64,000 nt of DNA from Candidatus Anstonellaceae archaeon. Lineage in GTDB: Archaea > Micrarchaeota > Micrarchaeia > Anstonellales > Anstonellaceae. Below, piece by piece: positions 4,509-58,087 of the stretch. How positions within the stretch are numbered: the stretch's first letter is position 1; every line of letters begins with the position of its first letter. Position numbers and translations under genes: made by a program. The notes below the pieces were generated by a model that ran no database searches, was not told where the DNA came from, and saw nothing but the letters and a program-made list of their open reading frames with translations. The stretch lies in contig JAWAEW010000006.1 in NCBI GenBank assembly GCA_038891035.1, positions 2,221 through 66,220 of the forward strand, read 5' to 3'.

Positions 4509-4617
4509 GCAGGGATGGCGGAGCCAGGTTTAACGCGCCAGACTCAAGATCTGCCTTATGGCAATAAGCAATCTGGTGACTTTAGGTCATCGGGAGTTCA
4601 AATCTCCCTCCCTGCAT
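4509..4617 (+). tRNA. tRNA-Leu (anticodon CAA) with ~22-nt intron adjacent to the anticodon loop
   Basis: Acceptor stem GCAGGGA/TCCCTGC, D-arm GCGGAGCCAGGTTTAACGC, anticodon stem CCAGA/TCTGG with loop CTCAAGA, long variable arm TGACTTTAGGTCA (class II tRNA), T-arm GGGAGTTCAAATCTCCC; extra CCTTATGGCAATAAGCAATCTG between anticodon loop and 3' anticodon stem consistent with archaeal bulge-helix-bulge intron. Confidence 0.7.
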
Positions 4618-44440: not shown

Positions 44441-45484
44441 TCAAATCATCTTTAGGGTCATATCTATCATCCTGTTTGAAAAGCCCCATTCGTTGTCATA
44501 CCAGGCAAGAGTCTTTGCTTGCTTGCCTATCACTTTTGTTGAAAGCGCATCAAAAATCGAGCTTGCTGGATTGTGGACTATATCTTGCGATACTATTGGG
44601 TCCTCGGTATATTCTAAAATGCCTTTCATCTTGCCTTCTGCTGCTTTTTTGACTGCATTGTTTATTTCTTCTGCTGTAGCTTCTTTCTTGAGAATGCAAG
44701 TTAGGTCGTTTACTGAGCCCGTCGGCACTGGTACACGCAGCGCAATTCCGTCCATCTTGCCTTTTAGTTTCGGCAGCACTTCACCTATTGCTTTGGCTGC
44801 CCCTGTTGAAGTTGGAATAATGTTTATTGCGCCTGCTCTTGCTCTGCGGAAGTCTTTGTGATAAGCGTCCAGTATCATCTGGTCGTTGGTGTATGCATGA
44901 CAAGTAGTCATAAATCCGCTTTCAATCCCGAATGCATCATCTAATACTTTTGCAACAGGAGCAAGACAGTTTGTGGTGCACGAACCAATTGATACGATTT
45001 TATGCTTATTTTTGTCATACATTTTGTCGTTTACTCCTATCACGATGGTTGCATCTGCTTCCCCGCCCTTACAAGGAGCGGAGATCAGCACTTTCTTTGC
45101 GCCGGCTTGAAGATGTTTGGATGCTCCTGCTCGATCTGTAAATGCGCCTGTGCATTCTAAAACTACATCTACTTCCATCGCTTTCCAGTCAAGTGTGGAT
45201 GGGTCTCTGGAGGAAACAAGTGGGATTTCATAGCCTTCTATCGTGAGTGTTGCCACGTGGCCGGGCACCTTGGGCTTGCCTGAAAGCGGTTCTCCTTTTA
45301 CAGAGCCTGCAAATTTTCCTTGAGTGGAGTCATATTTGAAAAGATGTGCTGCTAGGCGCGGATCATGAGTATCATTAATTGCGACTATGTCAAATGCTTT
45401 CCCTACCAATCCGCGCTCGAATGCTGCGCGGACGACCAACTTGCCAATTCTTCCAAAACCATTCACTGCAATTTTTGGAGCCAT
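44441..45484 (-). CDS. gap: glyceraldehyde-3-phosphate dehydrogenase, type I (bacterial/eukaryotic type)
   Basis: 'VNGFGRIGK', active site 'SCTTNCLAP', C-terminal 'WYDNEWGFS' are type I GapA hallmarks (archaeal type II lacks them). Confidence 0.85.
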   Translation of the reverse strand: MAPKIAVNGFGRIGKLVVRAAFERGLVGKAFDIVAINDTHDPRLAAHLFKYDSTQGKFAGSVKGEPLSGKPKVPGHVATLTIEGYEIPLVSSRDPSTLDWKAMEVDVVLECTGAFTDRAGASKHLQAGAKKVLISAPCKGGEADATIVIGVNDKMYDKNKHKIVSIGSCTTNCLAPVAKVLDDAFGIESGFMTTCHAYTNDQMILDAYHKDFRRARAGAINIIPTSTGAAKAIGEVLPKLKGKMDGIALRVPVPTGSVNDLTCILKKEATAEEINNAVKKAAEGKMKGILEYTEDPIVSQDIVHNPASSIFDALSTKVIGKQAKTLAWYDNEWGFSNRMIDMTLKMI

Positions 45485-45546
45485 CAAACACACCTCTTTC
45501 ACTACACACTCAAGCTAATTAATTAATCCTTGCGTAAAATAGTGCG

Positions 45547-47949
45547 ATGGAGATTGTGACAAGAAGGGCAATGCTTTTAGATGCGGATTATACGATAGTT
45601 GAAGGCAGGACTGTTGTTAGGCTGTTGATGAAAGGAAAACGTTTTTTTCGGCTTTATGACTATTATTTGCCTTATTTTTACTTGGATGCCCCAAAAAATG
45701 CTGAAGAGCTGATAAGAAAGGTTCGCGTTCAAAATGAAGGAAGACAAGTCACTCCAGTAAAACTTGAATGGGTTAAAAAAAGCGTTTTTGGCCAGGAGCG
45801 TGACATCTGGAAAGTGTACTGCGAGAGGCCTTCGGATGTGCCGAAAATAAGCAAAGCACTGCCTTATCCTTCTTATGAAAACGCAATTCCATTCGGAAGG
45901 AGATATTTGATTGATAAGGGGCTCTCTCCATTTACTACACTAGTTTACAAAAGGAAGGGGAAGTTTCTCATTGAGATAAAGAAAATTCTTGACAGAAAGG
46001 TCCCGCTTAGGACCATGTCTTTTGACATAGAAACCTACAATCCGCAGGGAACTCCACGGCCCGACCAAGACGAAGTGATTATGATAAGCTATGAAATTGG
46101 GCATACGGGGGAAAGAAAGGTAATCACCAGCAAAGACGTCAAAAGAGATTTTGCAATCGTATGCAAGGATGAAAGGCAGATGATTGAAAAGTTTCTTCAA
46201 GTGATCAGGGAAAATGACATTGAAGTGCTGTTTGGTTACAACAGCACTGTGTTTGATTTGCCATATCTTAAGGCAAGAGCAGATGCTAACGGATTGAATT
46301 TTGGGATTGGACGGGATGGTGGACCTTTTAGGATGAGAAAGCATGGGATAAGGAATGTTGCAAAAATCGTAGGCAGGATACATGTGGATCTTTATCCACT
46401 TGTCCGATTTATGGGTTTTATAGGAGCATTCAAGGTGAGCAAATATAGCTTGGAAAATGCGTATGAAGAACTAACTGGAAAAAAGAAGTTGATGGTTCAG
46501 AAACTGGATATTTGGAAGATGTGGGAGGACGAAAATCTTGTAGGCAAGCTTGCAGACTATTCGCTTTTTGATGCGCAGGCAACCATGGAGATAGGTAAGA
46601 TTTTGCTTCCACTGGAAATAGAAATGAGTAATTTGACTCGACTGCCTCTTTTTGACACAGTAAATGCAACGGCTGGCCAGCTTGTCGAATCTTTGTTGAT
46701 GCACAAAAGCACACAGAATAATGCAATAATTCCTAACAAGCCTGAGGATGCAGTTGCGCATGAAAGAGAGCTTGGTCCAATAAAGGGGGCTTTTGTCAAA
46801 ATCCCGCAGCCCGGGATTTATGAGAATCTAGTAGTGTTTGACTTTAGAGGTCTTTACCCTTCTATTATCACCTCACACAATATTGACCCTTTTACCTTGA
46901 ATCCACCAAGCTCGGTTCCGGACTCTGACTGCTATATTGCACCGAATGGAAGTCGCTTTTTGAAGAGCCCGAAAGGACTTATTCCTATGGTGCTTGAGGA
47001 ATTGATAGAGATGAGAAGCAAGCTCAAAAAGCGGTTGAAAGAGATTCAAAAAGACACACCGGAATACGAAATGCTTTTTGCACGTGTGCAGTCGCTAAAA
47101 ATACTTGCAAATTCATATTATGGATATCTGGCTTATCCGCGCTCAAGATGGTATTCCAGAGAATGTGGAGAGGCAGTGACGGCCTGGGGAAGGCATTACA
47201 TTCAAGATACTATAAGAAAAGCAACGGAAGCGGGTTTCGAAGTGCTATACAGTGATACTGACTCTGTTTTTCTTTTGCTTGGGAAAAGAATGAGAGAGGA
47301 TGCTCTTTCCTTTATGGAAAGCATCAATAGGCAGTTGCCTAAGGATATGGAATTGGAGCTTGAGGGATTTTATCCGAGGGGGCTTTTTGTAACTAAGAAA
47401 AATGCAGAAGGCGAAGGAGCCAAGAAAAAATATGCTTTAATAGGGGAGGATGGAAGGATAAAAATACGTGGCTTTGAGCTTGTGAGACGCGATTGGTCGA
47501 ATATAGCAAAGACAACACAAAAAAGAGTGCTTGAGGCAATTTTGAAGCATGGTAGCAAGGAAATGGCTGTTAAGATTGTGAAAGAGACGATCGAACAGCT
47601 GAAAAAAGGAAATGTTCCGATCGATGATCTGGTAATTTATACACAAATACGTAAAGACCCTCGGAAATACGATGTTAAATCTCCTGAGCTTTCTGCAGCA
47701 CAAAAGGCAATAGCTGCAGGCATTCCGATAGAAAAGGGGAGTGTAATTGGATATGTGATTACAAGAAGAGGGACGAGCATCTCGGAGAAAGCAACCCTTG
47801 CAGAGCTTGCAACAGATTATGATCCAAACTATTATATACAAAACCAGGTGCTTCCTGCAGTAATGAAGATATTGCAGGAGCTAGGATACAGCGAGGATGA
47901 TTTGAAATTTGGCGGGAAGCAGACCGGCCTCTCCTCTTTCTTAGAATAA
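45547..47949 (+). CDS. polB: DNA polymerase, family B
   Basis: exo motifs 'FDIET' and 'YNSTVFDLPYL', polymerase motifs 'SYYGY' region and 'YSDTDSVFL'; 800 aa, no intein. Confidence 0.9.
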   Translation: MEIVTRRAMLLDADYTIVEGRTVVRLLMKGKRFFRLYDYYLPYFYLDAPKNAEELIRKVRVQNEGRQVTPVKLEWVKKSVFGQERDIWKVYCERPSDVPKISKALPYPSYENAIPFGRRYLIDKGLSPFTTLVYKRKGKFLIEIKKILDRKVPLRTMSFDIETYNPQGTPRPDQDEVIMISYEIGHTGERKVITSKDVKRDFAIVCKDERQMIEKFLQVIRENDIEVLFGYNSTVFDLPYLKARADANGLNFGIGRDGGPFRMRKHGIRNVAKIVGRIHVDLYPLVRFMGFIGAFKVSKYSLENAYEELTGKKKLMVQKLDIWKMWEDENLVGKLADYSLFDAQATMEIGKILLPLEIEMSNLTRLPLFDTVNATAGQLVESLLMHKSTQNNAIIPNKPEDAVAHERELGPIKGAFVKIPQPGIYENLVVFDFRGLYPSIITSHNIDPFTLNPPSSVPDSDCYIAPNGSRFLKSPKGLIPMVLEELIEMRSKLKKRLKEIQKDTPEYEMLFARVQSLKILANSYYGYLAYPRSRWYSRECGEAVTAWGRHYIQDTIRKATEAGFEVLYSDTDSVFLLLGKRMREDALSFMESINRQLPKDMELELEGFYPRGLFVTKKNAEGEGAKKKYALIGEDGRIKIRGFELVRRDWSNIAKTTQKRVLEAILKHGSKEMAVKIVKETIEQLKKGNVPIDDLVIYTQIRKDPRKYDVKSPELSAAQKAIAAGIPIEKGSVIGYVITRRGTSISEKATLAELATDYDPNYYIQNQVLPAVMKILQELGYSEDDLKFGGKQTGLSSFLE

Positions 47950-48813
47950 ATATGTCAAGATGTCCCCAAAGAGCAAGGCAAAAAGAAGACCAAGCAAAAG
48001 ATGTGGGAGAAAAAATGGCATTTTTGTATAGACAATCACTTCTCTTATACGGGCTGCTTTAAGCTTGGCAATTTGTTCTTTTGTAATCACAGGCTTAAGC
48101 GAAAGCTTTCTTACAAGTTGCTGATTCATAAGCTCAAGCGCAAGCACGTCTTCCTCTTGCAGCAAAGAGACTTTCACTCTTTGTGCCATTGCTTCCTTGA
48201 TTTCTTTTTTGAAGAATGAGAAAAAAAGCAAGCTTACGAAAAGGAAAGCGATCAACAAAATAAATGCTTGAGAGATTCTGCCTGGCAACATGAACAAAGC
48301 GATGTTGAAGGCGGCAAATGACAAGGATAACGCAGCAAGCCCAACAAATTTTTCAAGCGAAAAGGTGATTTTGCCTTTCTTTGCAAGCTCTGTGACATAT
48401 GGAAGAAAACGTAAAAGCATATGCAAAATGAAAAATATGCTTGCCGGGACAAGCACTGAGATGATAAATGGATATGGTGCGGTTTTTCCTTCTGCAAAAA
48501 AGGGCTGTGGAGCATATGGCAAGGCAATAGCAATTGCTGAAAGCACAAACATGTCTGCGCCCCCGATTTGACCTGCTTTGTAAAGGAGGAAAGAGAGAGC
48601 AAAAATTGCGGCACCAAACGCAAAAGCATGAAAGGTGGCTGGACTGAAAAATATAAAGTTCAAAAATATCGCAGCCGCTAAAAAAGCGTAGACCAAGTTG
48701 TTTGGAACCCATTTGTTGTTAAATAAGTCAAAATAAGCAGATGCTGCAGTGAACAAAACAGAAACAATTACCCTAATTTCAATGCCTGGAATTTGGCTTG
48801 GCGAAGAAAACAT
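47941..48813 (-). CDS. prepilin/preflagellin peptidase (A24 family, PibD/FlaK/EppA-like)
   Basis: 290 aa polytopic membrane protein with the two catalytic Asp contexts 'SAYFDLFNNKWVPN' and 'GQIGGADMFVL'. Confidence 0.6.
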   Translation of the reverse strand: MFSSPSQIPGIEIRVIVSVLFTAASAYFDLFNNKWVPNNLVYAFLAAAIFLNFIFFSPATFHAFAFGAAIFALSFLLYKAGQIGGADMFVLSAIAIALPYAPQPFFAEGKTAPYPFIISVLVPASIFFILHMLLRFLPYVTELAKKGKITFSLEKFVGLAALSLSFAAFNIALFMLPGRISQAFILLIAFLFVSLLFFSFFKKEIKEAMAQRVKVSLLQEEDVLALELMNQQLVRKLSLKPVITKEQIAKLKAARIREVIVYTKMPFFLPHLLLGLLFALLFGDILTYLF

Positions 48814-48843: not shown

Positions 48844-50022
48844 TCAAACGTCAACTGTTTGGAGGAAGTAGTCATGCACTGCTATGAGGTCTAGTTCTTC
48901 ACATACTGCATTGCATTCAAGTACAGCAGAAATGCTTGGCTTGGTCCTCCCCCTATCCGAAGAGATGAATTCCTTTATGTATGTGCCGGCTTCTGCGACG
49001 ATGTGTAGCTTAAGTTTTTCATTTGGAAGGCAGGCTGCAGAAATTGAAAATATCTTTCTTTTTCTTTCCAAATCAGACCTTCTTGAGAGTACCCGAAGTG
49101 GCGTTTGCTGGGTTAGAAGCACCCCGGACAAACCTTCGACTTTCTTTGCATCTTGTTGACCTAAAGGGCGGTCGGCAGCCACAATCGCAATATATTCTTT
49201 TGTAAAATGTGAATTGCACACGAGATCAATGAAATTTTTTTTCACTTGGCGAAGCCCTATTGCCTTGATTGGTGATTCTGATGGGAGCGATATTTCCGAA
49301 ATGCTTCTTTTCTTCGGAGCTACCAACTCGAGCACAAAAGGCCTTCCGGTTCCTATGCAGCGGACATCGACATCTTCCCTTCCGCTTGCATGCAAAATGC
49401 AATCTTGCGCCTGCAGCCCTTGAACAAAAGGCTTTCCAAGTTCCTCTTCTATTGAAGGATAGTTTTTGCCTGCCCAACTGCACTTGTTGCAGCCTTTTCC
49501 CTTGCAAAAATTACAGTGCCATCTGCTTTGGCAGAAATTCCTTGAAAGCTTCAAGTAATGTCCGAATATATACAAGTTTGAAGGAGATGCTTTGGCTTCT
49601 TTAGTCTGGAAATTGAACTCAAAAACTGCATCAGGAAATCTTGGATCATGTGATTTGGAAGAATGTCTTTGTATAAGGCTTATCAGTTTTGCATTTATGA
49701 CGTTCTTTAAAGAACTGAATTGGCCGGGTTGGCAAAAATCCCATATTTGCTGCTCTGCTATGAGGAAACTTTTTGGCACTGAAGACGAAACTGAAAAGCT
49801 TTCCCACTCAAACTCTTTTGAAGAGGAGATTGCATGCGAAACCATTTGAGGAATCTGGCTGAAAGCACCTTTACATATGAAGCAACTAACAGGCTCTGGA
49901 GCACTTTGGACAAAAGGAAGGTGCGCAAAACACTCCCTGCATACTGAGCAAAGACGGAATGCCATATTCAAAGCACCTAAGCAAGACGAGCAAGTGCAAC
50001 GGCAGACATTTAAATCTTGCAA
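48844..50022 (-). CDS. pus10: tRNA pseudouridine(54/55) synthase Pus10
   Basis: N-terminal Cys-rich zinc ribbon, central Cys cluster 'CNFCKGKGCNKC', catalytic 'GREDVDVRCIGTGRPF' motif. Confidence 0.7.
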   Translation of the reverse strand: MQDLNVCRCTCSSCLGALNMAFRLCSVCRECFAHLPFVQSAPEPVSCFICKGAFSQIPQMVSHAISSSKEFEWESFSVSSSVPKSFLIAEQQIWDFCQPGQFSSLKNVINAKLISLIQRHSSKSHDPRFPDAVFEFNFQTKEAKASPSNLYIFGHYLKLSRNFCQSRWHCNFCKGKGCNKCSWAGKNYPSIEEELGKPFVQGLQAQDCILHASGREDVDVRCIGTGRPFVLELVAPKKRSISEISLPSESPIKAIGLRQVKKNFIDLVCNSHFTKEYIAIVAADRPLGQQDAKKVEGLSGVLLTQQTPLRVLSRRSDLERKRKIFSISAACLPNEKLKLHIVAEAGTYIKEFISSDRGRTKPSISAVLECNAVCEELDLIAVHDYFLQTVDV

Positions 50023-50122
50023 ACTTACTTTAACTCTTCTGAGGAGGATGATTGAAAAAGTATTATAAATAAGATGGATTAAAGAAAAAATGGTAAAATG
50101 TGGTTTTTATCAGGGTGAAGGT

Positions 50123-50872
50123 ATGCCTCGTGGAAAGCGAATTGTTATAGAAAAGACAATTAAGGATCCTGTTATAGCCAAATTGAAGGCAACAAAAATA
50201 TCCGAGATAAAAGCCAGGCGCATGCAACAGGAAAAAGAACTTCATGAAAGCATTCAGGAAATTGTAAACAAAGCAAAGGAGCTTTATGCTCAGGATAAAC
50301 TTGAGAAGGACCGGCTCAAAAATCTTGGCCTTTATACGCTTGACGAAGCATATGAGGAATTGAAGCGCGGCGGAATTGCCCTTTCCTTCAGGGCTTTTGG
50401 CGGAAGAGTAGAGAGACGCTCTATTTATTCTGAAAAAATAGGAAACAAAAGGCTTATTCCCAAGCCTGTGATTTCTGATTGGATTGCACTTGCAAATGAA
50501 TACTATACTGTAAAGCAGGCATATGAAGAGCTGAAAAAATATGAGAAGTTGAATTTGAGGGCATTTATTGGGCGGATTGAAAAGAATTCTATTCCTTCTT
50601 TGAAGATCGGGACCCAGCGCTGGATCCCAAAGTCGGCAATAGAAGGCTTAGTGCATATTGCAAAAAACTATTACGATGTAAGCCAAGCGATGGAGGTTTT
50701 AGCACAACGTGGGATAAAAATAAAGAGGAATGCGTTTGAAAGGAGGCTAGATCGCAATCGCATACCTCATGAAAAAATCGGGGGGAGACGGATTATTGCA
50801 AAGGAAGTGCTTGAGGAGCTCATAGCAAAAGAGCTTGCCCTTGCAAAGGGTCAGGAGCTTGTAAAGCGTTAG
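50123..50872 (+). CDS. protein with three tandem excisionase/MerR-type (HTH_17-like) DNA-binding repeats
   Basis: three ~55-aa repeats (YTLDEAYEEL...NKRLIPKPVISDWI / YTVKQAYEEL...TQRWIPKSAIEGLV / YDVSQAMEVL...GRRIIAKEVLEEL) each matching helix-turn-helix + 'RW/RL-IP' wing of excisionase-family domains. Confidence 0.5.
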   Translation: MPRGKRIVIEKTIKDPVIAKLKATKISEIKARRMQQEKELHESIQEIVNKAKELYAQDKLEKDRLKNLGLYTLDEAYEELKRGGIALSFRAFGGRVERRSIYSEKIGNKRLIPKPVISDWIALANEYYTVKQAYEELKKYEKLNLRAFIGRIEKNSIPSLKIGTQRWIPKSAIEGLVHIAKNYYDVSQAMEVLAQRGIKIKRNAFERRLDRNRIPHEKIGGRRIIAKEVLEELIAKELALAKGQELVKR

Positions 50873-50873
50873 G

Positions 50874-52202
50874 CTAGTTGTTGATGAATTTTCCCATGTC
50901 GATGTTCATTCCTTTGAGCATCTTTTCCATTTTTTTTCTTAAGCCCCTATTCTTTTTGAACTGATTGAAAAGGGAGCTTACTTTTTCAAAGTGATCAAGA
51001 AGTTGCCGTACATCCTGTTCAGTTGTGCCGGACCCTTTTGCAATGCGCTCAATGCGGGATTTTTGCTTGCGCAAAAGAGAAGCATCCTGGCGCTCTTGAG
51101 GGGTCATGGAAGAGATAATTGCTTCGAACTTTTTCAGTTTGTCTTGACTTGCCTGAAGAAGTTCTGCTGGCATGTCCGAGGCTCCAAGCATGGAGAAAAC
51201 AGATGAGAGTGGCCCAAGCTTTTTTGCTGCGCGCAACTGCTGATAAAAAACTTCTAACGTGAGTTTGTCTGGCTCAGTTTCGGCAAGCTTTTCTTCTTCT
51301 GCAATCTTTTTTATTTTCTCGAGTAAAGTTTTGATGTCCGGAAAGCCTAGAAGTCTGCCTACAAATTTTTGCGCATCGAAAGGTTCGATTGCGTCTATTT
51401 TTTCGCCTGTTCCAATGAAGGCAACTTTTGCTCCTGAAGCAGCAACTGCAGAAAGGGCTCCCCCGCCTTTTCCGCTGCCGTCCATTTTGGTGATGACCAC
51501 ACCTGAAAGCCCCACTGCCTGGTGAAATTGGGCGGCCTGCTTGCCTGCAACTTGGCCAATGTCTGCAGAAACGACAAGGAATTTTTCCTCTGGCTGAGCA
51601 ATTTGAGCAATTTGCTTCAGCTGCTCGACCAAATCAGGCTCAAAAGCGCTTCGGCCTGCGGAGTCGATTATGATTATGTCTTCTTTCCAAGTGGGCATGG
51701 TTTGCTGTAGTATCTTTTGCACATCTTTCTCATTGGGTATGCCTATGAATCTTGCCCCTGCCTGGGACGCCACTTGCTTCAGCTGCTCATATGCTGCCGG
51801 TCTATCTGTGTCGCAGCATACTACTGCTACTGACAGGCCTCTTGTTTTGTAAAAATGAGCAATCTTGCCTGCAGTGGTGGTTTTGCCACTTCCATAAAGC
51901 CCCAAAAGAAGGATTTTGTGTGGGGAGATTTTTGGCGTAAAGCTTTCGCCCAGCATTCCCACAAGCTCCTCATAAAGCACTTTTACAACATGCTCTCTTA
52001 AGGAAAGCCCAGGTGGAAGCTTTGAATCAAGAGATCTTGATTCAATTTTTTTTGTAAGCTCGAAAACCAGCTTTACGTTTACATCTGAAGAAATTAATAT
52101 CCTTTGAAGCTCTCGGCACAAGGCTTTTACTGCTTTTTCGTCAGCAACAGGTGCGCCCGTAAATCTTGCAAGTGCCTGGCGCAAGCTCCGCCCCAAGTCC
52201 AT
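50874..52202 (-). CDS. srp54: signal recognition particle protein SRP54
   Basis: N domain, G domain 'GLYGSGKTTTAGK', 'DTAGR'-like 'DSAGR', C-terminal Met-rich M domain. Confidence 0.9.
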   Translation of the reverse strand: MDLGRSLRQALARFTGAPVADEKAVKALCRELQRILISSDVNVKLVFELTKKIESRSLDSKLPPGLSLREHVVKVLYEELVGMLGESFTPKISPHKILLLGLYGSGKTTTAGKIAHFYKTRGLSVAVVCCDTDRPAAYEQLKQVASQAGARFIGIPNEKDVQKILQQTMPTWKEDIIIIDSAGRSAFEPDLVEQLKQIAQIAQPEEKFLVVSADIGQVAGKQAAQFHQAVGLSGVVITKMDGSGKGGGALSAVAASGAKVAFIGTGEKIDAIEPFDAQKFVGRLLGFPDIKTLLEKIKKIAEEEKLAETEPDKLTLEVFYQQLRAAKKLGPLSSVFSMLGASDMPAELLQASQDKLKKFEAIISSMTPQERQDASLLRKQKSRIERIAKGSGTTEQDVRQLLDHFEKVSSLFNQFKKNRGLRKKMEKMLKGMNIDMGKFINN

Positions 52203-53690: not shown

Positions 53691-53906
53691 ATGGGACAAA
53701 AAGTTGGAACTGAAAAGATACAGCGCGAGGAGGGCTACCTCTATTATATCGGGAAGGATGGATATGTTTGGAAAGCGCCGATGAAACACAACAAGCGCGG
53801 CAAAAAGGCGCGTGTTGGCACTGAAAAGATAACCAAGCAAGAAGGATATATGTACTACCTTGGCAAGGACGGATACGTCTATAAGGCAAAGCTGAAGAAT
53901 GCTTAA
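53691..53906 (+). CDS. small lysine-rich protein made of two tandem ~33-aa repeats
   Basis: GGAGGTG Shine-Dalgarno 7 nt upstream of ATG, TTTATAAATT TATA-like box at ~53660; repeats (V)GTEKI-x-EEGY-x-YY-x-GKDGYV-x-KA. Confidence 0.5.
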   Translation: MGQKVGTEKIQREEGYLYYIGKDGYVWKAPMKHNKRGKKARVGTEKITKQEGYMYYLGKDGYVYKAKLKNA

Positions 53907-54003: not shown

Positions 54004-56328
54004 ATGGGCTGCAGAGCAGAATATAGCGGAAGCAGGCTGGTGATGGATTGCCCGACCTGCGGGCTTGGACTTTCTACTCCTCAATGCATAAACTCGCATC
54101 TTAGAGTTCTTTCTACTCTTCCTCGACCTTGGCGCACAATGCGCTATGAGGAAGAGATGGTAGTTGACTTGGATGAGGAAAAAAGCGCAATACTGCAAGA
54201 ATATGCAGGCCTTATTAGACAAGTTGAAGCCATAATGCTCAATCCGAAAGTTTATGGTAGGCCTGAGGATGATTATTATTTGCAGCGGAAAAAACTGCTC
54301 AAGGACTTTTATGAGTATATGTTCATGAATCCGTTGGTAGCTGCACAAGTGCTCAAAGAATATAATGAGCCTTATCCTCAAAAGGCAGTTTTTGTAGAGG
54401 GGTATCGTACATTCCAAGCTTGGGTAAATGGGATATTGGATGCCTATACGAAGTCTTCACTATACATTCTTTGCCAAAAGACAGGTGACTTGAGGGCTGC
54501 TTTCCTTGCACTTCTTGGCCTCAAAAGCGTGCTTTTCCTGCAAAACATAATTCTGTCGGTCCCAAAAGACGCAGTTGAAATAGAAGGTCCTGATGCAAAT
54601 TATGATCTTCCTTATGGGCTAAAAGTAAAGATTTATGATCTGCCTTCTGGTGAAGCGAGGCTTTACACAATACACGACCCGGTAATAGAAAACCTTTCCC
54701 CTCAATTGCAGGAGATGCTTAAGAACGCCATACAGGAAGGTATGAAGGAACTGAGGCAGGTTGAAGATTATACAACCTTATTTGACGAAAAAAGTAGAGA
54801 ATATGCGCAACGTTTCATAGACAAGGCTACGCTTGAAAATATCCCTATTACTCAAAAGGAAGCTGTTGCGATGGGAAGGGAGGCAGCATGTTGGGTGGTT
54901 GGTCTTGGCTCGCCTATAGAAAATATGGCCTTGGACAAAGACAACATAACAGATATTTACATCGATGCCGAGAATTCGCCAATATATATTGAACATGCGA
55001 AATTTGGCCTCTGCCACACCCTCTGGAGATACAACAGGGAAATGCTTGAGAATGTCTTCAAAAACATCATCGCATCTGCGCCAGGGGCGCGGAAATTTGA
55101 TAAAAACACTCCTGTGATTGATGTAGTTCTAAGTCGCCTTGCGATGAGGTGCCATCTGCAGCGCCCACCTGCGACCTTTGGCGAGCTTCAAGCTGCTTTG
55201 AGATTGATGAGGGATCAGCCGTTTACTTATCCAATGTACCTTAAGCTCAAATCGATGAGCCCGTTTTTTGCAGGCTATGACGACGTTATGGTTTCGCTTG
55301 GTTGCTCTGAAGCAGTGCTTGGGCTAAAAGGAGTAGGCAAAACCGCATTTACCTCAGCCAAGATTGCAGCAATAGGAACAAAAAAGAGGATATTGCCCAT
55401 TCAAGACATAGAGGAAATTCCTACTCGAGCATATCGAAAAAGAGGGTTCCACATAGGTGCTGTGCAAGTGCAGTCTTCTGAGATAGAGGATGTCGGCAAA
55501 ACACCTGAACTTGACTTGGTTTCGATGACGAATGCGGCTTTGCGTATGGGAGACGCTTGTGTCATAATCAACGAAATACGTTCCAGGCTTGCAATACAGG
55601 GTGTCATCAACATGCTCAATACTCAGCCCGGAATTTTCCTGCTTTATAACTTGCATGCACAGTCCCTTAAAGATGTGCAAGACCGGCTTGAGCTTGTATT
55701 TGGTGTCCCTGCCGCTTCAATGTTTTCAACAGACAGATATACTTTTCTCAAAAAAGTAAGGTTTGGCAGGAAAAGTAGAATATACAGAATGGTCGGATTC
55801 CAATACGAAACGGATATCTCTGAGCATAAATTTGTTCAGGTATTTTTGCTTGACAGAGCTGAAAGCGTAGAAAAGACGCGCCTTAGATGCTTGTTTTTGG
55901 ATATGCCCGAAGCCGAGGCAGAATCGCTTGCTGATGTAGATTTGGGCAAGCTTGCAAAAAATATGAAGATAAAGTTTTTGCCTCCTGCATTGGTCAGAAG
56001 ATCTGATGAAACCGGTCTTTCCCCGCAACAGTATATAATGGAGGCTTTCTTCAAAGGTAAAATGTATTCTCAGATTGCAGAATGTGCGGATAAATACAAC
56101 CATCCACAATTTGTTGAGCTGGATTTTGTATTGAGGTGCAACACTGCTGCAAACAATCTGCTAAGAAAGCTTGAAAGCGAAGAAAATGAAATTGACTGGA
56201 AGGCTGCAGATAAAGAGTGGCAAAGGATATTTGAGCAATTAGTTCAAAAAGAGCTTGCAGAAGCAAAGCTGGAAGAAGAAAAAAAGAAAGGAGGAAAAAG
56301 ACCTAAAGCCGAGACGCAAACTCCTTGA
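54004..56328 (+). CDS. atypical large secretion/pilus-assembly ATPase of the VirB11/FlaI/PilT superfamily with N-terminal Zn-ribbon extension
   Basis: 774 aa; 'ITDIYIDAENSPIYIEHAKFGL' (T2SS-E N-domain), Walker A 'GLKGVGKT', Asp box 'RILPIQDIEEIP', Walker B/His-box region 'AALRMGDACVIINEIRSRLAIQGVINMLNTQPG...LHAQSLKD'; N-term 'CPTCG'; ~300-aa N- and ~170-aa C-extensions. Confidence 0.6.
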   Translation: MGCRAEYSGSRLVMDCPTCGLGLSTPQCINSHLRVLSTLPRPWRTMRYEEEMVVDLDEEKSAILQEYAGLIRQVEAIMLNPKVYGRPEDDYYLQRKKLLKDFYEYMFMNPLVAAQVLKEYNEPYPQKAVFVEGYRTFQAWVNGILDAYTKSSLYILCQKTGDLRAAFLALLGLKSVLFLQNIILSVPKDAVEIEGPDANYDLPYGLKVKIYDLPSGEARLYTIHDPVIENLSPQLQEMLKNAIQEGMKELRQVEDYTTLFDEKSREYAQRFIDKATLENIPITQKEAVAMGREAACWVVGLGSPIENMALDKDNITDIYIDAENSPIYIEHAKFGLCHTLWRYNREMLENVFKNIIASAPGARKFDKNTPVIDVVLSRLAMRCHLQRPPATFGELQAALRLMRDQPFTYPMYLKLKSMSPFFAGYDDVMVSLGCSEAVLGLKGVGKTAFTSAKIAAIGTKKRILPIQDIEEIPTRAYRKRGFHIGAVQVQSSEIEDVGKTPELDLVSMTNAALRMGDACVIINEIRSRLAIQGVINMLNTQPGIFLLYNLHAQSLKDVQDRLELVFGVPAASMFSTDRYTFLKKVRFGRKSRIYRMVGFQYETDISEHKFVQVFLLDRAESVEKTRLRCLFLDMPEAEAESLADVDLGKLAKNMKIKFLPPALVRRSDETGLSPQQYIMEAFFKGKMYSQIAECADKYNHPQFVELDFVLRCNTAANNLLRKLESEENEIDWKAADKEWQRIFEQLVQKELAEAKLEEEKKKGGKRPKAETQTP

Positions 56329-57616
56329 GGAAGTCTTCCAACCTGTCTGCTGGGATTGTTGCACCTGCTGCAATGTTGTGCCCTCCTCCACTTCCGCCAA
56401 CTGCGGCACATGCTTGAGAAAGAACTACTCCTAAGTTAAGTCCTGCCTCCACTAATTCTTTGCTTCCCCGAGTGGAAATTTTTATCATACCGGGGCTTTC
56501 ATCTGCAATTGCAAGAACTGGCTTGCTTTTACCACCTGGGTAAAGCATGCCTGCAATCACTCCAATTATAGTATCTTTTATTGCTCCCCGCCCGTCCAAA
56601 AAGAAAAATTTCCCAAAATCCTGTGTATTCTTTAAAGCAAAGGCAAGGCCTTCTCTTAAGTTTTTCCTGTGCTGTGCAAGCAAAATCTTCGCCTTTTCAT
56701 ACGCATTTTCTTTTGAAAGACATACTGCAACCCCAAGCCCATACTGGCCGTTTCTGCCGCAAGCATTCAATAAGGTTGAGAATTCTGAGGCATCTGCAAG
56801 CTCAGTTTTCTGTGGCTTTTTTGGGAAGATGTAGACTTCTCCTACGAGCTTTTCTGCTGCCTGTGGGGAGATCCTTGCAGAAAGCAAATCTGCAAGCGCG
56901 GATACCAGCTTTTGCTTCTCATTCTCACTCAAATCAGAATAACATCTCCACTCTGAGTTGTCTTTCAGCGGAATATTCAGCTGTGAAAGGAAAGAGGCAC
57001 ATGCTTCTTCATTTCCTGTGAGGCCTGGGAGATAAGGGTCGTCTGCATATGAAAGAAGTTGAATCAATGGTCTGCTGTTTCTTCCAAAAAGCCGCAAGTC
57101 TATTTTGGCTTCTGCCAACCCTGCCTGCTGGGCCTCGTGAAGCATTATACGGTTGAGGCTTTGTAGGGGATATTGGATGTCTCCTACTGCGCCAGTTATG
57201 CCAATCTCTGGCGCTTGTCTGAAAACAAAATAAGCGCATGCGGAGGCTGAAGCTTCGCTTCCGCCGTCAAAACCAAAGAAATGAGGATTTGCTTGAAGAT
57301 GGGCTTTTGATTGGGGCTGGTGGTGGTCGATTATTATGATGTTTGAAGAAAGCTGATCGATAGAAGGTGTGCTACTTCCTAAATCAACAAAAATTAAATT
57401 TGGCTCATTTTTGAGGCTAGAGATTATTTGTTCGTCAAGCTTCTTTACAGTTAGCATTCTGTATTTTGCCTTGCGCAATTCAAACCATGAAGCAACTATT
57501 GAACCGGAAGAAATTCCATCGCAGTCATAATGATGGACTATGAGCGGGTCTTGCATTCTTTCTGCAACTTCCAGTGCTTCACTGCAGCGCTCAAAGAAGG
57601 CATTTTGGTTTTTCAT
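56303..57616 (-). CDS. DHH-family phosphoesterase, archaeal RecJ/GAN-like nuclease
   Basis: DHH motifs 'HHYDCDGISS', 'IIIDHH', DHHA1-type C-terminal domain 'GGGHNIAAG'. Confidence 0.7.
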   Translation of the reverse strand: MKNQNAFFERCSEALEVAERMQDPLIVHHYDCDGISSGSIVASWFELRKAKYRMLTVKKLDEQIISSLKNEPNLIFVDLGSSTPSIDQLSSNIIIIDHHQPQSKAHLQANPHFFGFDGGSEASASACAYFVFRQAPEIGITGAVGDIQYPLQSLNRIMLHEAQQAGLAEAKIDLRLFGRNSRPLIQLLSYADDPYLPGLTGNEEACASFLSQLNIPLKDNSEWRCYSDLSENEKQKLVSALADLLSARISPQAAEKLVGEVYIFPKKPQKTELADASEFSTLLNACGRNGQYGLGVAVCLSKENAYEKAKILLAQHRKNLREGLAFALKNTQDFGKFFFLDGRGAIKDTIIGVIAGMLYPGGKSKPVLAIADESPGMIKISTRGSKELVEAGLNLGVVLSQACAAVGGSGGGHNIAAGATIPADRLEDFLKEFASRL

Positions 57617-57667
57617 ACAGCAAGAAATAGCAGAAGACGTATAAAAGGCATTGTGGAAAACGAAACC

Positions 57668-58087
57668 ATGGAATTTGAGCATGCGTCAGATGTCCAGCAG
57701 AAGGTTGAGGAGATTGTATCTGTTTTGTCTTCAAGCTCAAAAGTAGCTGAATTTAGGCATATTAATCAATTCAGAATAATTTGCATGCGATCCAGAGGTT
57801 CAAAGGCAAATGCTTATGCAAGGATTTGGAACCTGCCTATGATCTGGCAAAAGGCACTTTCGGTTGGAGCATTTTACATAATAGAAGTAATAAGCGATCA
57901 TTATGATTCTCTTGATGAAGAGCAAAAAGAGAAAGTCCTTTTACACGAACTTATGCATATTCCAAAGACATTTTCAGGTGCGCTTCGGCCTCATAATGGC
58001 AAAGTAAAAATTAACCGTCAAACTGTGGAGAAGCTTTATAGGATATATCTAAAAGAAAAAACGGCTGAAGCGGTGGGTTCAAAATGA
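57668..58087 (+). CDS. putative Zn-metallopeptidase (HExxH; SprT/DUF45-like)
   Basis: 'VLLHELMHI' zinc-binding motif in 139-aa protein. Confidence 0.45.
   Translation: MEFEHASDVQQKVEEIVSVLSSSSKVAEFRHINQFRIICMRSRGSKANAYARIWNLPMIWQKALSVGAFYIIEVISDHYDSLDEEQKEKVLLHELMHIPKTFSGALRPHNGKVKINRQTVEKLYRIYLKEKTAEAVGSK

What the first reader, a model, noticed from the sequence alone, without database searches (positions are those of the whole stretch)
50123..50872. Three tandem excisionase/MerR-type HTH repeats in one 250-aa protein
The repeats are each about 55 aa, with a helix-turn-helix followed by an R-W/L-I-P-K wing. Excisionase-family domains normally occur singly. A triple array suggests recognition of a long or repeated DNA operator. 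It lies next to pus10 and faces srp54 convergently, with no mobile-element genes nearby.
Basis: partly seen in the sequence, partly recalled or inferred. Interest (0 to 1): 0.55.

Follow-up and report, generated by a model that had tools for sequence, protein, structure and literature searches.

The report
Triple excisionase-type DNA-binding protein of Micrarchaeota
This gene encodes a very basic protein built from three fused copies of the small DNA-binding fold that phage excisionases use; it is a chromosomal gene found almost only in one phylum of tiny archaea, is as conserved there as their DNA polymerase, and has no known function.

Summary
ORF 50123-50872 (+) encodes a 249-aa protein (pI about 10) with three diverged 56-aa repeats (pairwise z = 13-21 against shuffles; the DNA copies are diverged, so this is not an assembly artefact).

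Each repeat is a distant HTH_17 (excisionase/MerR-like) winged helix. The evidence is hhalign 96% (E 2.8e-9) against true HTH_17 repeats, and an AF2 model (pLDDT 88.7) with three beta-alpha-alpha-beta-beta-alpha units. Single repeats superpose on Pukovnik Xis, RacA and many phage excisionases. Pfam and TIGRFAM scores fall just below their cut-offs because every repeat has a 5-residue insertion in the HTH turn.

The protein is not mobile-element linked. It forms a compact family (37 clusters at 50% identity among 1.84 billion proteins), found in 164 species genomes, almost all Micrarchaeota. It is as conserved as PolB and SRP54 and usually lies close to PolB.

Tandem HTH_17 arrays are not unique: TraN has two domains, and arrays of 3-7 turned up here.

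Most likely it is a covalent "head-to-tail trimer" that reads about three successive DNA grooves. A conserved box at its own transcription start suggests autoregulation. Function is inferred, not shown. I rate it a moderately interesting new variant of a known kind.

The parts
50123..50872 (+). Coding sequence of the 249-aa triple-wHTH protein (stop included)
   Evidence: ORF list and sequence. The start is fixed by homologues beginning MPRGKR and by the GGTGA Shine-Dalgarno-like box. 441 homologues at E<=1e-3.
50123..50329 (+). N-terminal region (aa 1-69): basic arm MPRGKR, then helices 16-23, 26-56 (a 31-residue helix) and 62-67
   Evidence: AF2 secondary structure. Mean column conservation is 0.76 for the arm and 0.57 for the helices; net charge +7. 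No family or PDB match.
50330..50497 (+). Repeat 1 (aa 70-125): beta1, alpha1 73-82, recognition helix 89-97 (SFRAFGGRVERR), wing 104-113 (KIGNKRLIPK), linker helix 114-126
   Evidence: Recognition-helix conservation 0.92, wing 0.80.
50498..50665 (+). Repeat 2 (aa 126-181): recognition helix 145-153 (LRAFIGRIEK), wing 160-169 (KIGTQRWIPK)
   Evidence: TIGR01764 best stretch is aa 152-177. Conservation 0.92 and 0.86.
50666..50833 (+). Repeat 3 (aa 182-237): recognition helix 202-210 (KRNAFERRLDR), wing 217-226 (KIGGRRIIAK)
   Evidence: Pfam HTH_17 best stretch is aa 199-236. Conservation 0.95 and 0.90.
50054..50071 (+). Putative archaeal promoter: purine-rich BRE-like GAAAAAG followed by the TATA box TTATAAATA
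   Evidence: Read from the sequence. TTATAAA is the most enriched 7-mer in non-redundant upstream regions of the family: 36 of 58 against 4.4 in shuffles. The promoter assignment rests on the archaeal consensus and is an inference.
50089..50108 (+). Conserved box AATGGTAAAATGTGGTTTTT at the expected transcription start. Candidate operator or initiator element, with two TGGT elements 10 bp apart
   Evidence: The box lies a fixed 25-28 nt after the TATA start, but 31-62 nt from the ATG, in about 32 loci of the near clade. TGGTAAA occurs in 21 of 58 upstream regions against 2.2 in shuffles. It is unique in the 64-kb window. All 31 top PWM hits in 1.86 Mb are promoters of this gene, although that scan is circular. 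Binding by the protein itself is an inference.
50114..50118 (+). GGTGA ribosome-binding (Shine-Dalgarno-like) sequence
   Evidence: GGTGA or GGTGG is present 5-10 nt before the ATG in nearly all loci.

Best explanation
The gene encodes a chromosomal DNA-binding protein found almost only in Micrarchaeota.

Architecture. It has a short basic N-terminal arm, a long helix, and three non-identical HTH_17 (Xis/MerR-like) winged-helix modules joined by 13-residue helices.

Proposed mechanism. The three modules are held in a fixed relative arrangement. Each places its recognition helix in a major groove and its beta-wing in the adjacent minor groove. One polypeptide would therefore read about three successive turns (about 30 bp) along one face of the DNA. 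This would be a covalent version of the head-to-tail oligomers that single-domain relatives (BldC, lambda and Pukovnik Xis, RdfS) assemble on direct repeats one helical turn apart.

Expected target and role. Each module's recognition helix is invariant across the phylum yet differs from the other two. The target is therefore expected to be a composite, asymmetric site rather than three identical repeats. The likely role is a core regulator or architectural factor, not an excisionase. In the Anstonellales-like clade it probably also represses its own promoter through the conserved GGTAAA..TGTGG box at the transcription start.

Shown: the repeats, the fold and homology, the phyletic restriction, the strong constraint concentrated on recognition helices and wings, the chromosomal synteny, and the conserved promoter box.

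Inferred: DNA binding itself, the head-to-tail geometry, the identity of the target, and autoregulation.
For: - Three repeats at z = 13-21.
- hhalign of the repeat profile against true HTH_17 repeats: 96% probability, E 2.8e-9, 48 columns.
- The family profile reaches tandem HTH_17 proteins at E 4e-4 to 7e-4. Some members pass Pfam's cut-off (P0128 at 32.2 bits, P0142 at 28.0).
- AF2 model: pLDDT 88.7, pTM 0.77, three beta-alpha-alpha-beta-beta-alpha units.
- Single-repeat superpositions: Pukovnik Xis 4j2n (TM 0.72, rmsd 1.8 A), RacA-DNA 5i44 (TM 0.60), MerR-family N-domains, and two-domain TraN 4p0z (probability 0.91). Dozens of phage Xis/HTH proteins match at rmsd 1.2-2 A.
- Conservation is highest in recognition helices (0.92-0.95) and wings (0.80-0.90), against 0.57-0.68 elsewhere.
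- pI 9.95, with every segment net positive.
- Head-to-tail binding of direct repeats one turn apart is established for BldC (PMC5859096) and proposed for RdfS and Xis (PMC11963761). TraN places two fused wHTH domains in adjacent major grooves (PMC6158623).
- Conserved TSS-proximal box.
Against: - No experiment or DNA-complex model was available. The model coordinates could not be read, so the spacing and orientation of the three recognition helices are unverified.
- Curated thresholds for HTH_17 and TIGR01764 are narrowly missed.
- All repeats have a 5-residue insertion in the HTH turn, which could change the binding mode.
- The promoter box is confined to the near clade (members at least about 63% identical). 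More distant members have other 5' elements, although their recognition helices are the same. The box is therefore unlikely to be the principal, phylum-wide target. It could instead be an initiator element or the site of another factor.
- Conservation equal to PolB and SRP54 is unusual for an ordinary specific regulator.
Confidence: 0.55

Rival explanations
1. General architectural or replication-associated DNA-binding protein. It would coat or bend DNA with little sequence specificity (a pre-assembled Xis-like micro-filament), or act at replication forks or origins together with family-B DNA polymerase, rather than as a gene-specific regulator.
For: - It is at least as conserved as PolB (higher in 33 of 45 loci) and SRP54 (higher in 29 of 34).
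- PolB lies within 6 kb in 48 of 80 loci. In about 23 distant loci PolB starts 22-50 bp after this gene's stop codon on the same strand.
- A RecJ/GAN-like DHH-CID gene lies 5.4 kb away.
- The protein is strongly basic throughout, with a near-consensus TATA and SD.
- RdfS and BldC can bind by indirect readout without a strict consensus (PMC11963761).
Against: - Each repeat keeps a different, invariant recognition helix. That pattern fits a defined composite site better than non-specific coating.
- Micrarchaeota already encode histones and Alba (PMC6136690).
- Cumulative GC skew rises steadily through this region of the window, with no turning point near 50 kb.
- Distant family members (P0131, P0142) sit in unrelated contexts without PolB.
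- Gene order could be inherited synteny rather than a functional link.
Confidence: 0.22
2. RNA-binding component of a conserved ribonucleoprotein (ribosome, SRP, or tRNA/rRNA maturation) that uses winged helices to bind structured RNA.
For: - Conservation is on a par with SRP54.
- pI is about 10.
- The neighbours are SRP54 (nearby in 36 of 80 loci) and the tRNA pseudouridine synthase Pus10 (37 of 80).
- A phylum-wide invariant partner such as an RNA would explain invariant contact surfaces.
Against: - All detectable relatives by sequence or fold are double-stranded-DNA binders (Xis, BldC-type, RacA, TraN, MerR N-domains).
- No Rfam family lies adjacent.
- No conserved RNA structure appears in its own leader.
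- The link to SRP54 and Pus10 is positional only.
Confidence: 0.08
3. Domesticated or resident recombination directionality factor (excisionase) of an integrated mobile element.
For: The sequence resembles TIGR01764 'excise' (28.7 bits against a cut-off of 28.8) and PHROG excisionases weakly (E 0.03). The fold matches phage Xis proteins.
Against: - No integrase, transposase or phage gene lies within +/-6 kb.
- The same housekeeping synteny (PolB, Pus10, SRP54) is kept across dozens of genomes of the phylum.
- The family is vertically conserved at 50-95% identity, which is unlike mobile-element cargo.
Confidence: 0.03

Closest known systems
BldC (Streptomyces; MerR-like/HTH_17, PDB 6AMA/6AMK)
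   Same: Same small wHTH fold class. It has no MerR dimerisation or effector domain. It is chromosomal and regulatory, not recombination-linked. Several wHTH units line up head-to-tail on DNA, one per 9-bp repeat or one per helical turn (PMC5859096; PMC11963761).
   Different: BldC is a 68-residue single domain that oligomerises only on DNA, with a variable number of protomers. Here three diverged domains are fused in one chain with helical linkers and an N-terminal helix, so the stoichiometry is fixed. BldC is bacterial and this protein is archaeal. BldC did not appear among the Foldseek PDB matches listed. The resemblance is through the shared HTH_17 class.
Excisionases / recombination directionality factors (lambda Xis, Pukovnik Xis 4J2N, RdfS 8DGL)
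   Same: The beta-alpha-alpha-beta-beta topology. A single repeat superposes on Pukovnik Xis with TM 0.72 and rmsd 1.8 A. Co-operative filament-like binding to direct repeats. RdfS also has an extra N-terminal helix.
   Different: These proteins are encoded on mobile elements, are single-domain, and work with an integrase at att sites. None of those three properties holds here.
TraN of plasmid pIP501 (PDB 4P0Z, 4P0Y, 4PM3)
   Same: The best multi-domain PDB match (probability 0.91, 21-22% identity). It has two Xis/MerR-like wHTH domains fused in one chain. The two recognition helices enter adjacent major grooves of an asymmetric site, and it acts as a repressor (PMC6158623).
   Different: TraN has two domains arranged as a pseudo-two-fold 'internal dimer', with the wings forming the interface. 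Here there are three domains. The overall superposition is poor (TM 0.37-0.38 on the target, rmsd about 11 A), so the inter-domain geometry differs. TraN is a bacterial plasmid conjugation protein.
Uncharacterised tandem HTH_17 array proteins (P0156 with 3, P0157 with 4, P0155 with 7 domains; phage protein A0A8S5MI40)
   Same: Several HTH_17 domains in tandem in one polypeptide. They are reached by the family profile at E 4e-4 to 7e-4. The phage protein aligns over 189 columns (TM 0.54 on the target).
   Different: Their repeats are canonical HTH_17 (88-195 bits) without the 5-residue turn insertion. They lack the N-terminal helical region. They are not a conserved phylum-wide family. Their functions are also unknown.
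MerR-family regulators (SoxR 2ZHG, NmlR 5D90, MtaN 1R8D) and RacA (5I44)
   Same: The N-terminal wHTH of these proteins matches single repeats (probability 0.7-0.97).
   Different: MerR proteins dimerise through a C-terminal coiled coil, bind palindromes and sense effectors. RacA binds as a symmetric dimer. No MerR Pfam match and no effector domain are present here.

Membership tests
Pfam HTH_17 (PF12728) / excisionase-type wHTH superfamily | Sequence match at or above the curated gathering score | tested here: not met
   The window protein scores 21.8 bits against a cut-off of 27, with one stretch (aa 199-236). TIGR01764 scores 28.7 against 28.8. Some orthologues do pass (P0128 at 32.2, P0142 at 28.0; 13 of the top 120 carry a precomputed PF12728 hit).
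Pfam HTH_17 (PF12728) / excisionase-type wHTH superfamily | Homology of each repeat to true HTH_17 domains by profile-profile comparison | tested here: met
   hhalign of 27 repeats (A2) against 11 HTH_17 repeats (A3): probability 96.1%, E 2.8e-9, 48 aligned columns, with one 5-residue insertion in the turn.
Pfam HTH_17 (PF12728) / excisionase-type wHTH superfamily | beta1-alpha-alpha-beta2-beta3 winged-helix fold | tested here: met
   The AF2 model (pLDDT 88.7) shows this topology three times. Matches: Pukovnik Xis TM 0.72 and rmsd 1.8 A; RacA TM 0.60; phage Xis/HTH proteins at rmsd 1.2-2 A. This is a predicted structure, not a solved one.
Recombination directionality factors (functional excisionases) | Encoded in a mobile element next to, or together with, a site-specific recombinase | tested here: not met
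   The neighbours are GAPDH, PolB, an A24 peptidase, Pus10, SRP54, PFK and RecJ-like. The same synteny recurs across the phylum.
Recombination directionality factors (functional excisionases) | Stimulates excision / binds att arm sites | not testable with these tools
   This needs recombination assays.
MerR family proper | C-terminal coiled-coil dimerisation helix plus effector-binding region; palindromic operator | tested here: not met
   No MerR or MerR_1 Pfam hit even at E<=10. After repeat 3 only a 22-residue helix remains. The architecture is three tandem wHTH domains.
BldC family | Stand-alone wHTH of about 70 aa that multimerises head-to-tail on DNA direct repeats | tested here: not met
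   The protein is 249 aa with three fused domains. The works-like analogy stands, but membership does not. Head-to-tail geometry on DNA was not testable.
TraN-like internal-dimer repressors | Two fused wHTH domains related by a pseudo-two-fold axis, with the wings forming the interface | tested here: inconclusive

The most novel reading that the evidence does not exclude
The protein is an essential, phylum-specific core factor of Micrarchaeota. It would be a covalently pre-assembled 'Xis filament', recruited from a mobile-element DNA-bending fold into chromosome biology. It would work with family-B DNA polymerase (at replication origins or forks) or as a general transcription or chromatin factor. 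That would explain why it is as constrained as PolB and SRP54 and why it stays next to the PolB gene.
Probability: 0.2. Interest if true: 0.65.

Novelty: new variant of a known kind. Interest (0 to 1): 0.4.

Why it matters
DPANN archaea have very small genomes and few recognisable regulators. A DNA-binding protein that is phylum-specific, kept in 164 species-level genomes, and as constrained as the replicative polymerase and SRP54 is likely to do something central that current annotation ("hypothetical protein") misses.

It would also be a natural test case. Single-domain excisionase/BldC-type proteins build variable head-to-tail filaments on DNA. Here evolution has fixed the number at three and let the modules diverge. 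A structure with DNA would show how such filaments read sequence.

If the link to PolB is functional, it would point to a lineage-specific accessory factor of archaeal replication.

Tried and rejected
1. Sequence searches of the PDB with the full-length profile and with the repeat profile found nothing, even at E<=10.

None lies next to a homologue of this gene. The pattern is too short for that collection, so nothing was learned about a regulon.

4. Upstream-ORF reading of the conserved box (ATGGTAAA as a leaderless Met-Val-Lys peptide): rejected. The ATG is absent in L006 and L008, and the downstream frame, length and peptide are not conserved.

5. RNA-structure reading of the leader: single-sequence folds of 23 leaders share no hairpin. 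The only recurring pairing is a 4-bp GGUA:UGCC closing stem.

6. A box shared across clades (TGTG[GT]NTTT): above shuffles, but limited to a sub-clade of 5-6 distant loci. This is too weak to claim.

7. Origin of replication nearby: cumulative GC skew shows no turning point near 50 kb.

8. Assembly duplication: rejected.

9. Literature: no paper linking Micrarchaeota to this family was found.

Full report
**1. The observation**

The ORF runs from ATG 50123 to TAG 50870-50872 on the + strand. An in-frame ATG at 50090 would add 11 codons, but it is not the start. Every homologue begins MPRGKR or a close variant. A GGTGA box sits 5 nt before 50123. In the closest relative (L001, 95% identical protein) the extension contains a stop codon.

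The protein is 249 aa, with pI 9.95 and 55 K+R against 34 D+E. Every segment is net positive.

The three repeats cover aa 70-125, 126-181 and 182-237. They align pairwise with BLOSUM62 local scores of 114, 93 and 87. Shuffled controls give 22-23 +/- 4.5 with a maximum of 47, so z = 13.6-21.

At the DNA level only 47 of 171 columns are identical in all three copies, and Tandem Repeats Finder sees no array. This is an old, diverged triplication and not an assembly artefact.

**2. What the repeats are**

Curated models narrowly fail. Pfam HTH_17 gives 21.8 bits (cut-off 27) on repeat 3 only. TIGR01764 "excise" gives 28.7 bits (cut-off 28.8) with two stretches.

The reason shows up in a profile-profile comparison. 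A profile of 27 repeats matches a profile of 11 true HTH_17 repeats with 96% probability (E 2.8e-9) over 48 columns, but with a 5-residue insertion in the turn between the two HTH helices. All three repeats have this insertion, so it predates the triplication.

Some orthologues pass Pfam's threshold (P0128 at 32.2 bits, P0142 at 28.0).

An AlphaFold2 model built on 31 homologues is confident (pLDDT 88.7, pTM 0.77). It shows a disordered basic arm, helices 16-23, 26-56 and 62-67, and then three beta1-alpha1-alpha2-beta2-beta3-alpha3 units. The alpha3 of each unit runs straight into beta1 of the next.

Foldseek finds no full-length analogue in the PDB. Single repeats superpose on mycobacteriophage Pukovnik Xis (TM 0.72 on the target, rmsd 1.8 A) and on RacA bound to DNA (TM 0.60). 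They also match the wHTH of SoxR, NmlR and MtaN. The best multi-domain match is TraN of pIP501 (probability 0.91, 21-22% identity).

Against predicted viral structures, dozens of phage "excise" or HTH proteins match one repeat at rmsd 1.2-2 A. A 188-aa phage protein aligns over 189 columns.

**3. Tandem arrays are not unique**

TraN is a solved example of two such domains fused in one chain, whose recognition helices enter adjacent major grooves of an asymmetric site (PMC6158623).

The weakest hits of the family profile in a library of 1.84 billion representatives are true arrays with 3, 4 and 7 HTH_17 domains (P0156, P0157, P0155).

The statement that these domains "normally occur singly" holds for characterised proteins but is not a rule.

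**4. Distribution and constraint**

- The family has 441 members at E<=1e-3 among 90%-identity clusters. The top 120 are 57-95% identical and 226-281 aa long. Wherever they are named they come from Micrarchaeota, Anstonellaceae or Anstonellales, and they are annotated as hypothetical or "helix-turn-helix domain-containing".
- It collapses to only 37 clusters at 50% identity in 1.84 billion representatives.
- In one genome per GTDB species, 164 stretches encode a relative. The 80 retained loci are nearly all titled Micrarchaeota. They include a 1.57-Mb chromosome (OY970229.1) and the 0.92-Mb contig of isolate LFW-35, whose protein NCBI labels Candidatus Anstonella stagnisolia.
- A few records titled Bacteroidetes, Omnitrophica or "ainarchaeum" are probably mis-binned or differently classified.
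- The denominator (all Micrarchaeota species) could not be counted, so "near-universal" is an inference.

Measured against the same loci, the protein is more conserved than PolB in 33 of 45 comparisons. It is more conserved than SRP54 in 29 of 34, than Pus10 in 36 of 36 and than the A24 peptidase in 24 of 24.

Within the protein, the three recognition helices (mean column conservation 0.92-0.95) and wings (0.80-0.90) are far more conserved than alpha1, the linker helices or the N-terminal helices (0.57-0.68).

Each repeat has its own invariant signature (SFRAFGGRVERR, LRAFIGRIEK, KRNAFERRLDRNRIP). Only five columns are identical across all repeats and species.

**5. Context**

The neighbours are:

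- GAPDH (44441-45502, -)
- family-B DNA polymerase (45547-47949, +)
- an A24 prepilin-type peptidase (47941-48813, -)
- Pus10 (48844-50022, -)
- the gene itself
- SRP54 (50874-52202, -, convergent)
- phosphofructokinase
- a secretion-ATPase-like protein
- a RecJ/GAN-like DHH-CID protein

. No mobile-element genes are present.

Across the 80 loci, PolB lies within 6 kb in 48, Pus10 in 37 and SRP54 in 36.

In the more distant clade (about 50% identity) PolB follows immediately on the same strand, 22-50 bp after the stop codon. A TATA-like CTAAATAA often overlaps that stop codon, which suggests a separate, leaderless PolB transcript rather than an operon.

Two very distant members (P0131, P0142) lie in unrelated contexts.

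The PolB association is recurrent. It could still be inherited synteny.

**6. A conserved box at the gene's own promoter**

Upstream of the ATG there is a near-consensus TATA box (TTATAAATA, 50063-50071) preceded by a purine-rich BRE-like stretch.

In about 32 loci of the near clade a box with consensus aATGGTAAA-nn(n)-TGTrTTT begins a fixed 25-28 nt after the TATA start, which is the expected transcription start. Its distance to the ATG varies from 31 to 62 nt, and the flanks are unconserved.

- TGGTAAA occurs in 21 of 58 non-redundant upstream regions. Dinucleotide shuffles give 2.2, and the highest count for any 7-mer in any shuffle was 16.
- TGGT-N6-TGGT occurs in 10 of 70 upstream regions, against a background of 0.0006 per 120 nt.
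- The box is unique in the 64-kb window.
- A PWM scan of 1.86 Mb puts all 31 top hits at promoters of this gene. That test is circular, because the PWM was trained on those sites.
- It is not a conserved upstream ORF, and it has no conserved RNA fold.
- It is absent from the distant clade, which has other clade-specific 5' elements.

My reading is that this is a promoter-proximal operator or initiator element. Autorepression by the encoded protein is the simplest hypothesis, but it is unproven.

The recognition helices are invariant across the phylum while this box is not. The box therefore cannot be the main target that constrains the protein.

**7. Mechanism**

Established knowledge of the fold class:

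[quoted passage not shown] They extend into filaments with one protomer per DNA turn (PMC5859096; PMC11963761).
- RdfS and lambda Xis form comparable filaments (PMC11963761).
- Apl sites are direct repeats one helical turn apart (abstract of PMC7498355).

Fusing three such modules with rigid helical linkers would fix the stoichiometry at three, remove the need for co-operative assembly, and allow each module to specialise. The pattern of repeat-specific invariant helices fits that picture.

I therefore propose a covalent head-to-tail trimer that reads about 30 bp on one DNA face. The MPRGKR arm is a possible extra minor-groove contact, and the 31-residue helix is a possible dimerisation or partner interface. 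Both of those roles are inferred.

Rival explanations:

- A non-specific architectural or replication-linked role, supported by the level of constraint and by the PolB linkage. Against it, Micrarchaeota already have histones and Alba (PMC6136690).
- An RNP component, supported only by position and constraint.
- A true excisionase, contradicted by the context.

**8. Comparison with known systems and novelty**

The protein works like BldC/Xis-type filaments and like TraN. It is not a member of any of those families:

- It is not single-domain.
- It is not linked to a mobile element or recombinase.
- It has no MerR coiled coil or effector domain.
- Its inter-domain geometry does not superpose on TraN (rmsd about 11 A).

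It does belong to the HTH_17 superfamily by profile and fold, though it falls below Pfam's gathering score.

No publication on this family was found.

I class it as a new variant of a known kind: a fixed, diverged, three-module excisionase-type array recruited as a conserved chromosomal protein of one archaeal phylum.

**9. Verdict**

- The domain interpretation is supported.
- The uniqueness claim is overstated.
- The operator idea is plausible but untested.

Interest is 0.40. The gene is real, strongly constrained and uncharacterised in a poorly understood phylum. However, the fold, tandem fusion and likely binding mode all have precedents, and its function remains inferred.

Noticed in passing
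window 50090-50122: In this window the ATG at 50090, inside the conserved box, is in frame with the main ORF (MVKCGFYQGEG-MPRGKR...), giving a 260-aa ORF. In the closest relative L001 a C-to-T change makes TAG after 7 codons. Gene callers may therefore annotate different starts in different genomes (compare the 260-266-aa entries P0066, P0103).
   Followed up: partly
window 53691-53906 (+): A 71-aa ORF made of two copies of a motif of about 33 aa (VGTEKIxxEEGYxYYxGKDGYVxKA), lying in the PFK / secretion-ATPase intergenic space. It has no Pfam or NCBIfam match. It may be a small beta-rich protein of unknown function, or it may not be a gene.
   Followed up: partly
window 54004-56328 (+) and 47941-48813 (-): A 774-aa protein with no Pfam hit at 1e-4 but weak NCBIfam matches to TadA/FlaI/VirB11-type secretion ATPases (E 6e-17 to 9e-9, far below cut-offs). 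It is 74-93% identical in related loci. Together with the A24 prepilin-type peptidase 5 kb away, it suggests a divergent type-IV-pilus-like apparatus.
   Followed up: partly
window 4509-4616 (+): Rfam finds a tRNA (48 bits) spanning 108 nt, which is too long for a plain tRNA and so probably carries an intron. ARAGORN reports no tRNA anywhere in the window.
   Followed up: no
loci L060, L063, L066, L068, L071 (and others of L044-L077), just after the gene's stop codon: In distant Micrarchaeota the PolB ATG lies 22-50 bp after this gene's stop. The only TATA-like element (CTAAATAA) overlaps that stop codon, and no Shine-Dalgarno box follows. This suggests a leaderless PolB mRNA whose promoter is embedded in the 3' end of the HTH gene.
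   Followed up: partly
window 50870-50876: The stop codons of the HTH gene (TAG 50870-50872) and of the convergent SRP54 gene (CTA 50874-50876) are separated by a single base. No intergenic terminator space exists. A terminator-like hairpin with a T-run lies inside the SRP54 3' end (50901-50922).
   Followed up: no
window 56303-57682 (-) and 45547-47949 (+): A RecJ/GAN-like DHH, DHH-CID and DHHA1 protein and the family-B polymerase both lie within 6 kb of the HTH gene. This is a loose cluster of replication genes.
   Followed up: no
L018 (CAIYVS010000023.1) and P0119: Family members sit in records titled 'uncultured Bacteroidetes bacterium' and 'Candidatus Omnitrophica bacterium'. At 59-73% identity to the Micrarchaeota proteins, these contigs are probably mis-binned.
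   Followed up: no
loci L074, L076, L078, L080, L057 upstream regions: A sub-clade of distant loci carries TGTGTGTTTTATA directly after the TATA box. This resembles the second half of the near-clade box (TGTGGTTTTTAT) but sits at a different position. It could be the same recognition element relocated, or it could be chance.
   Followed up: partly
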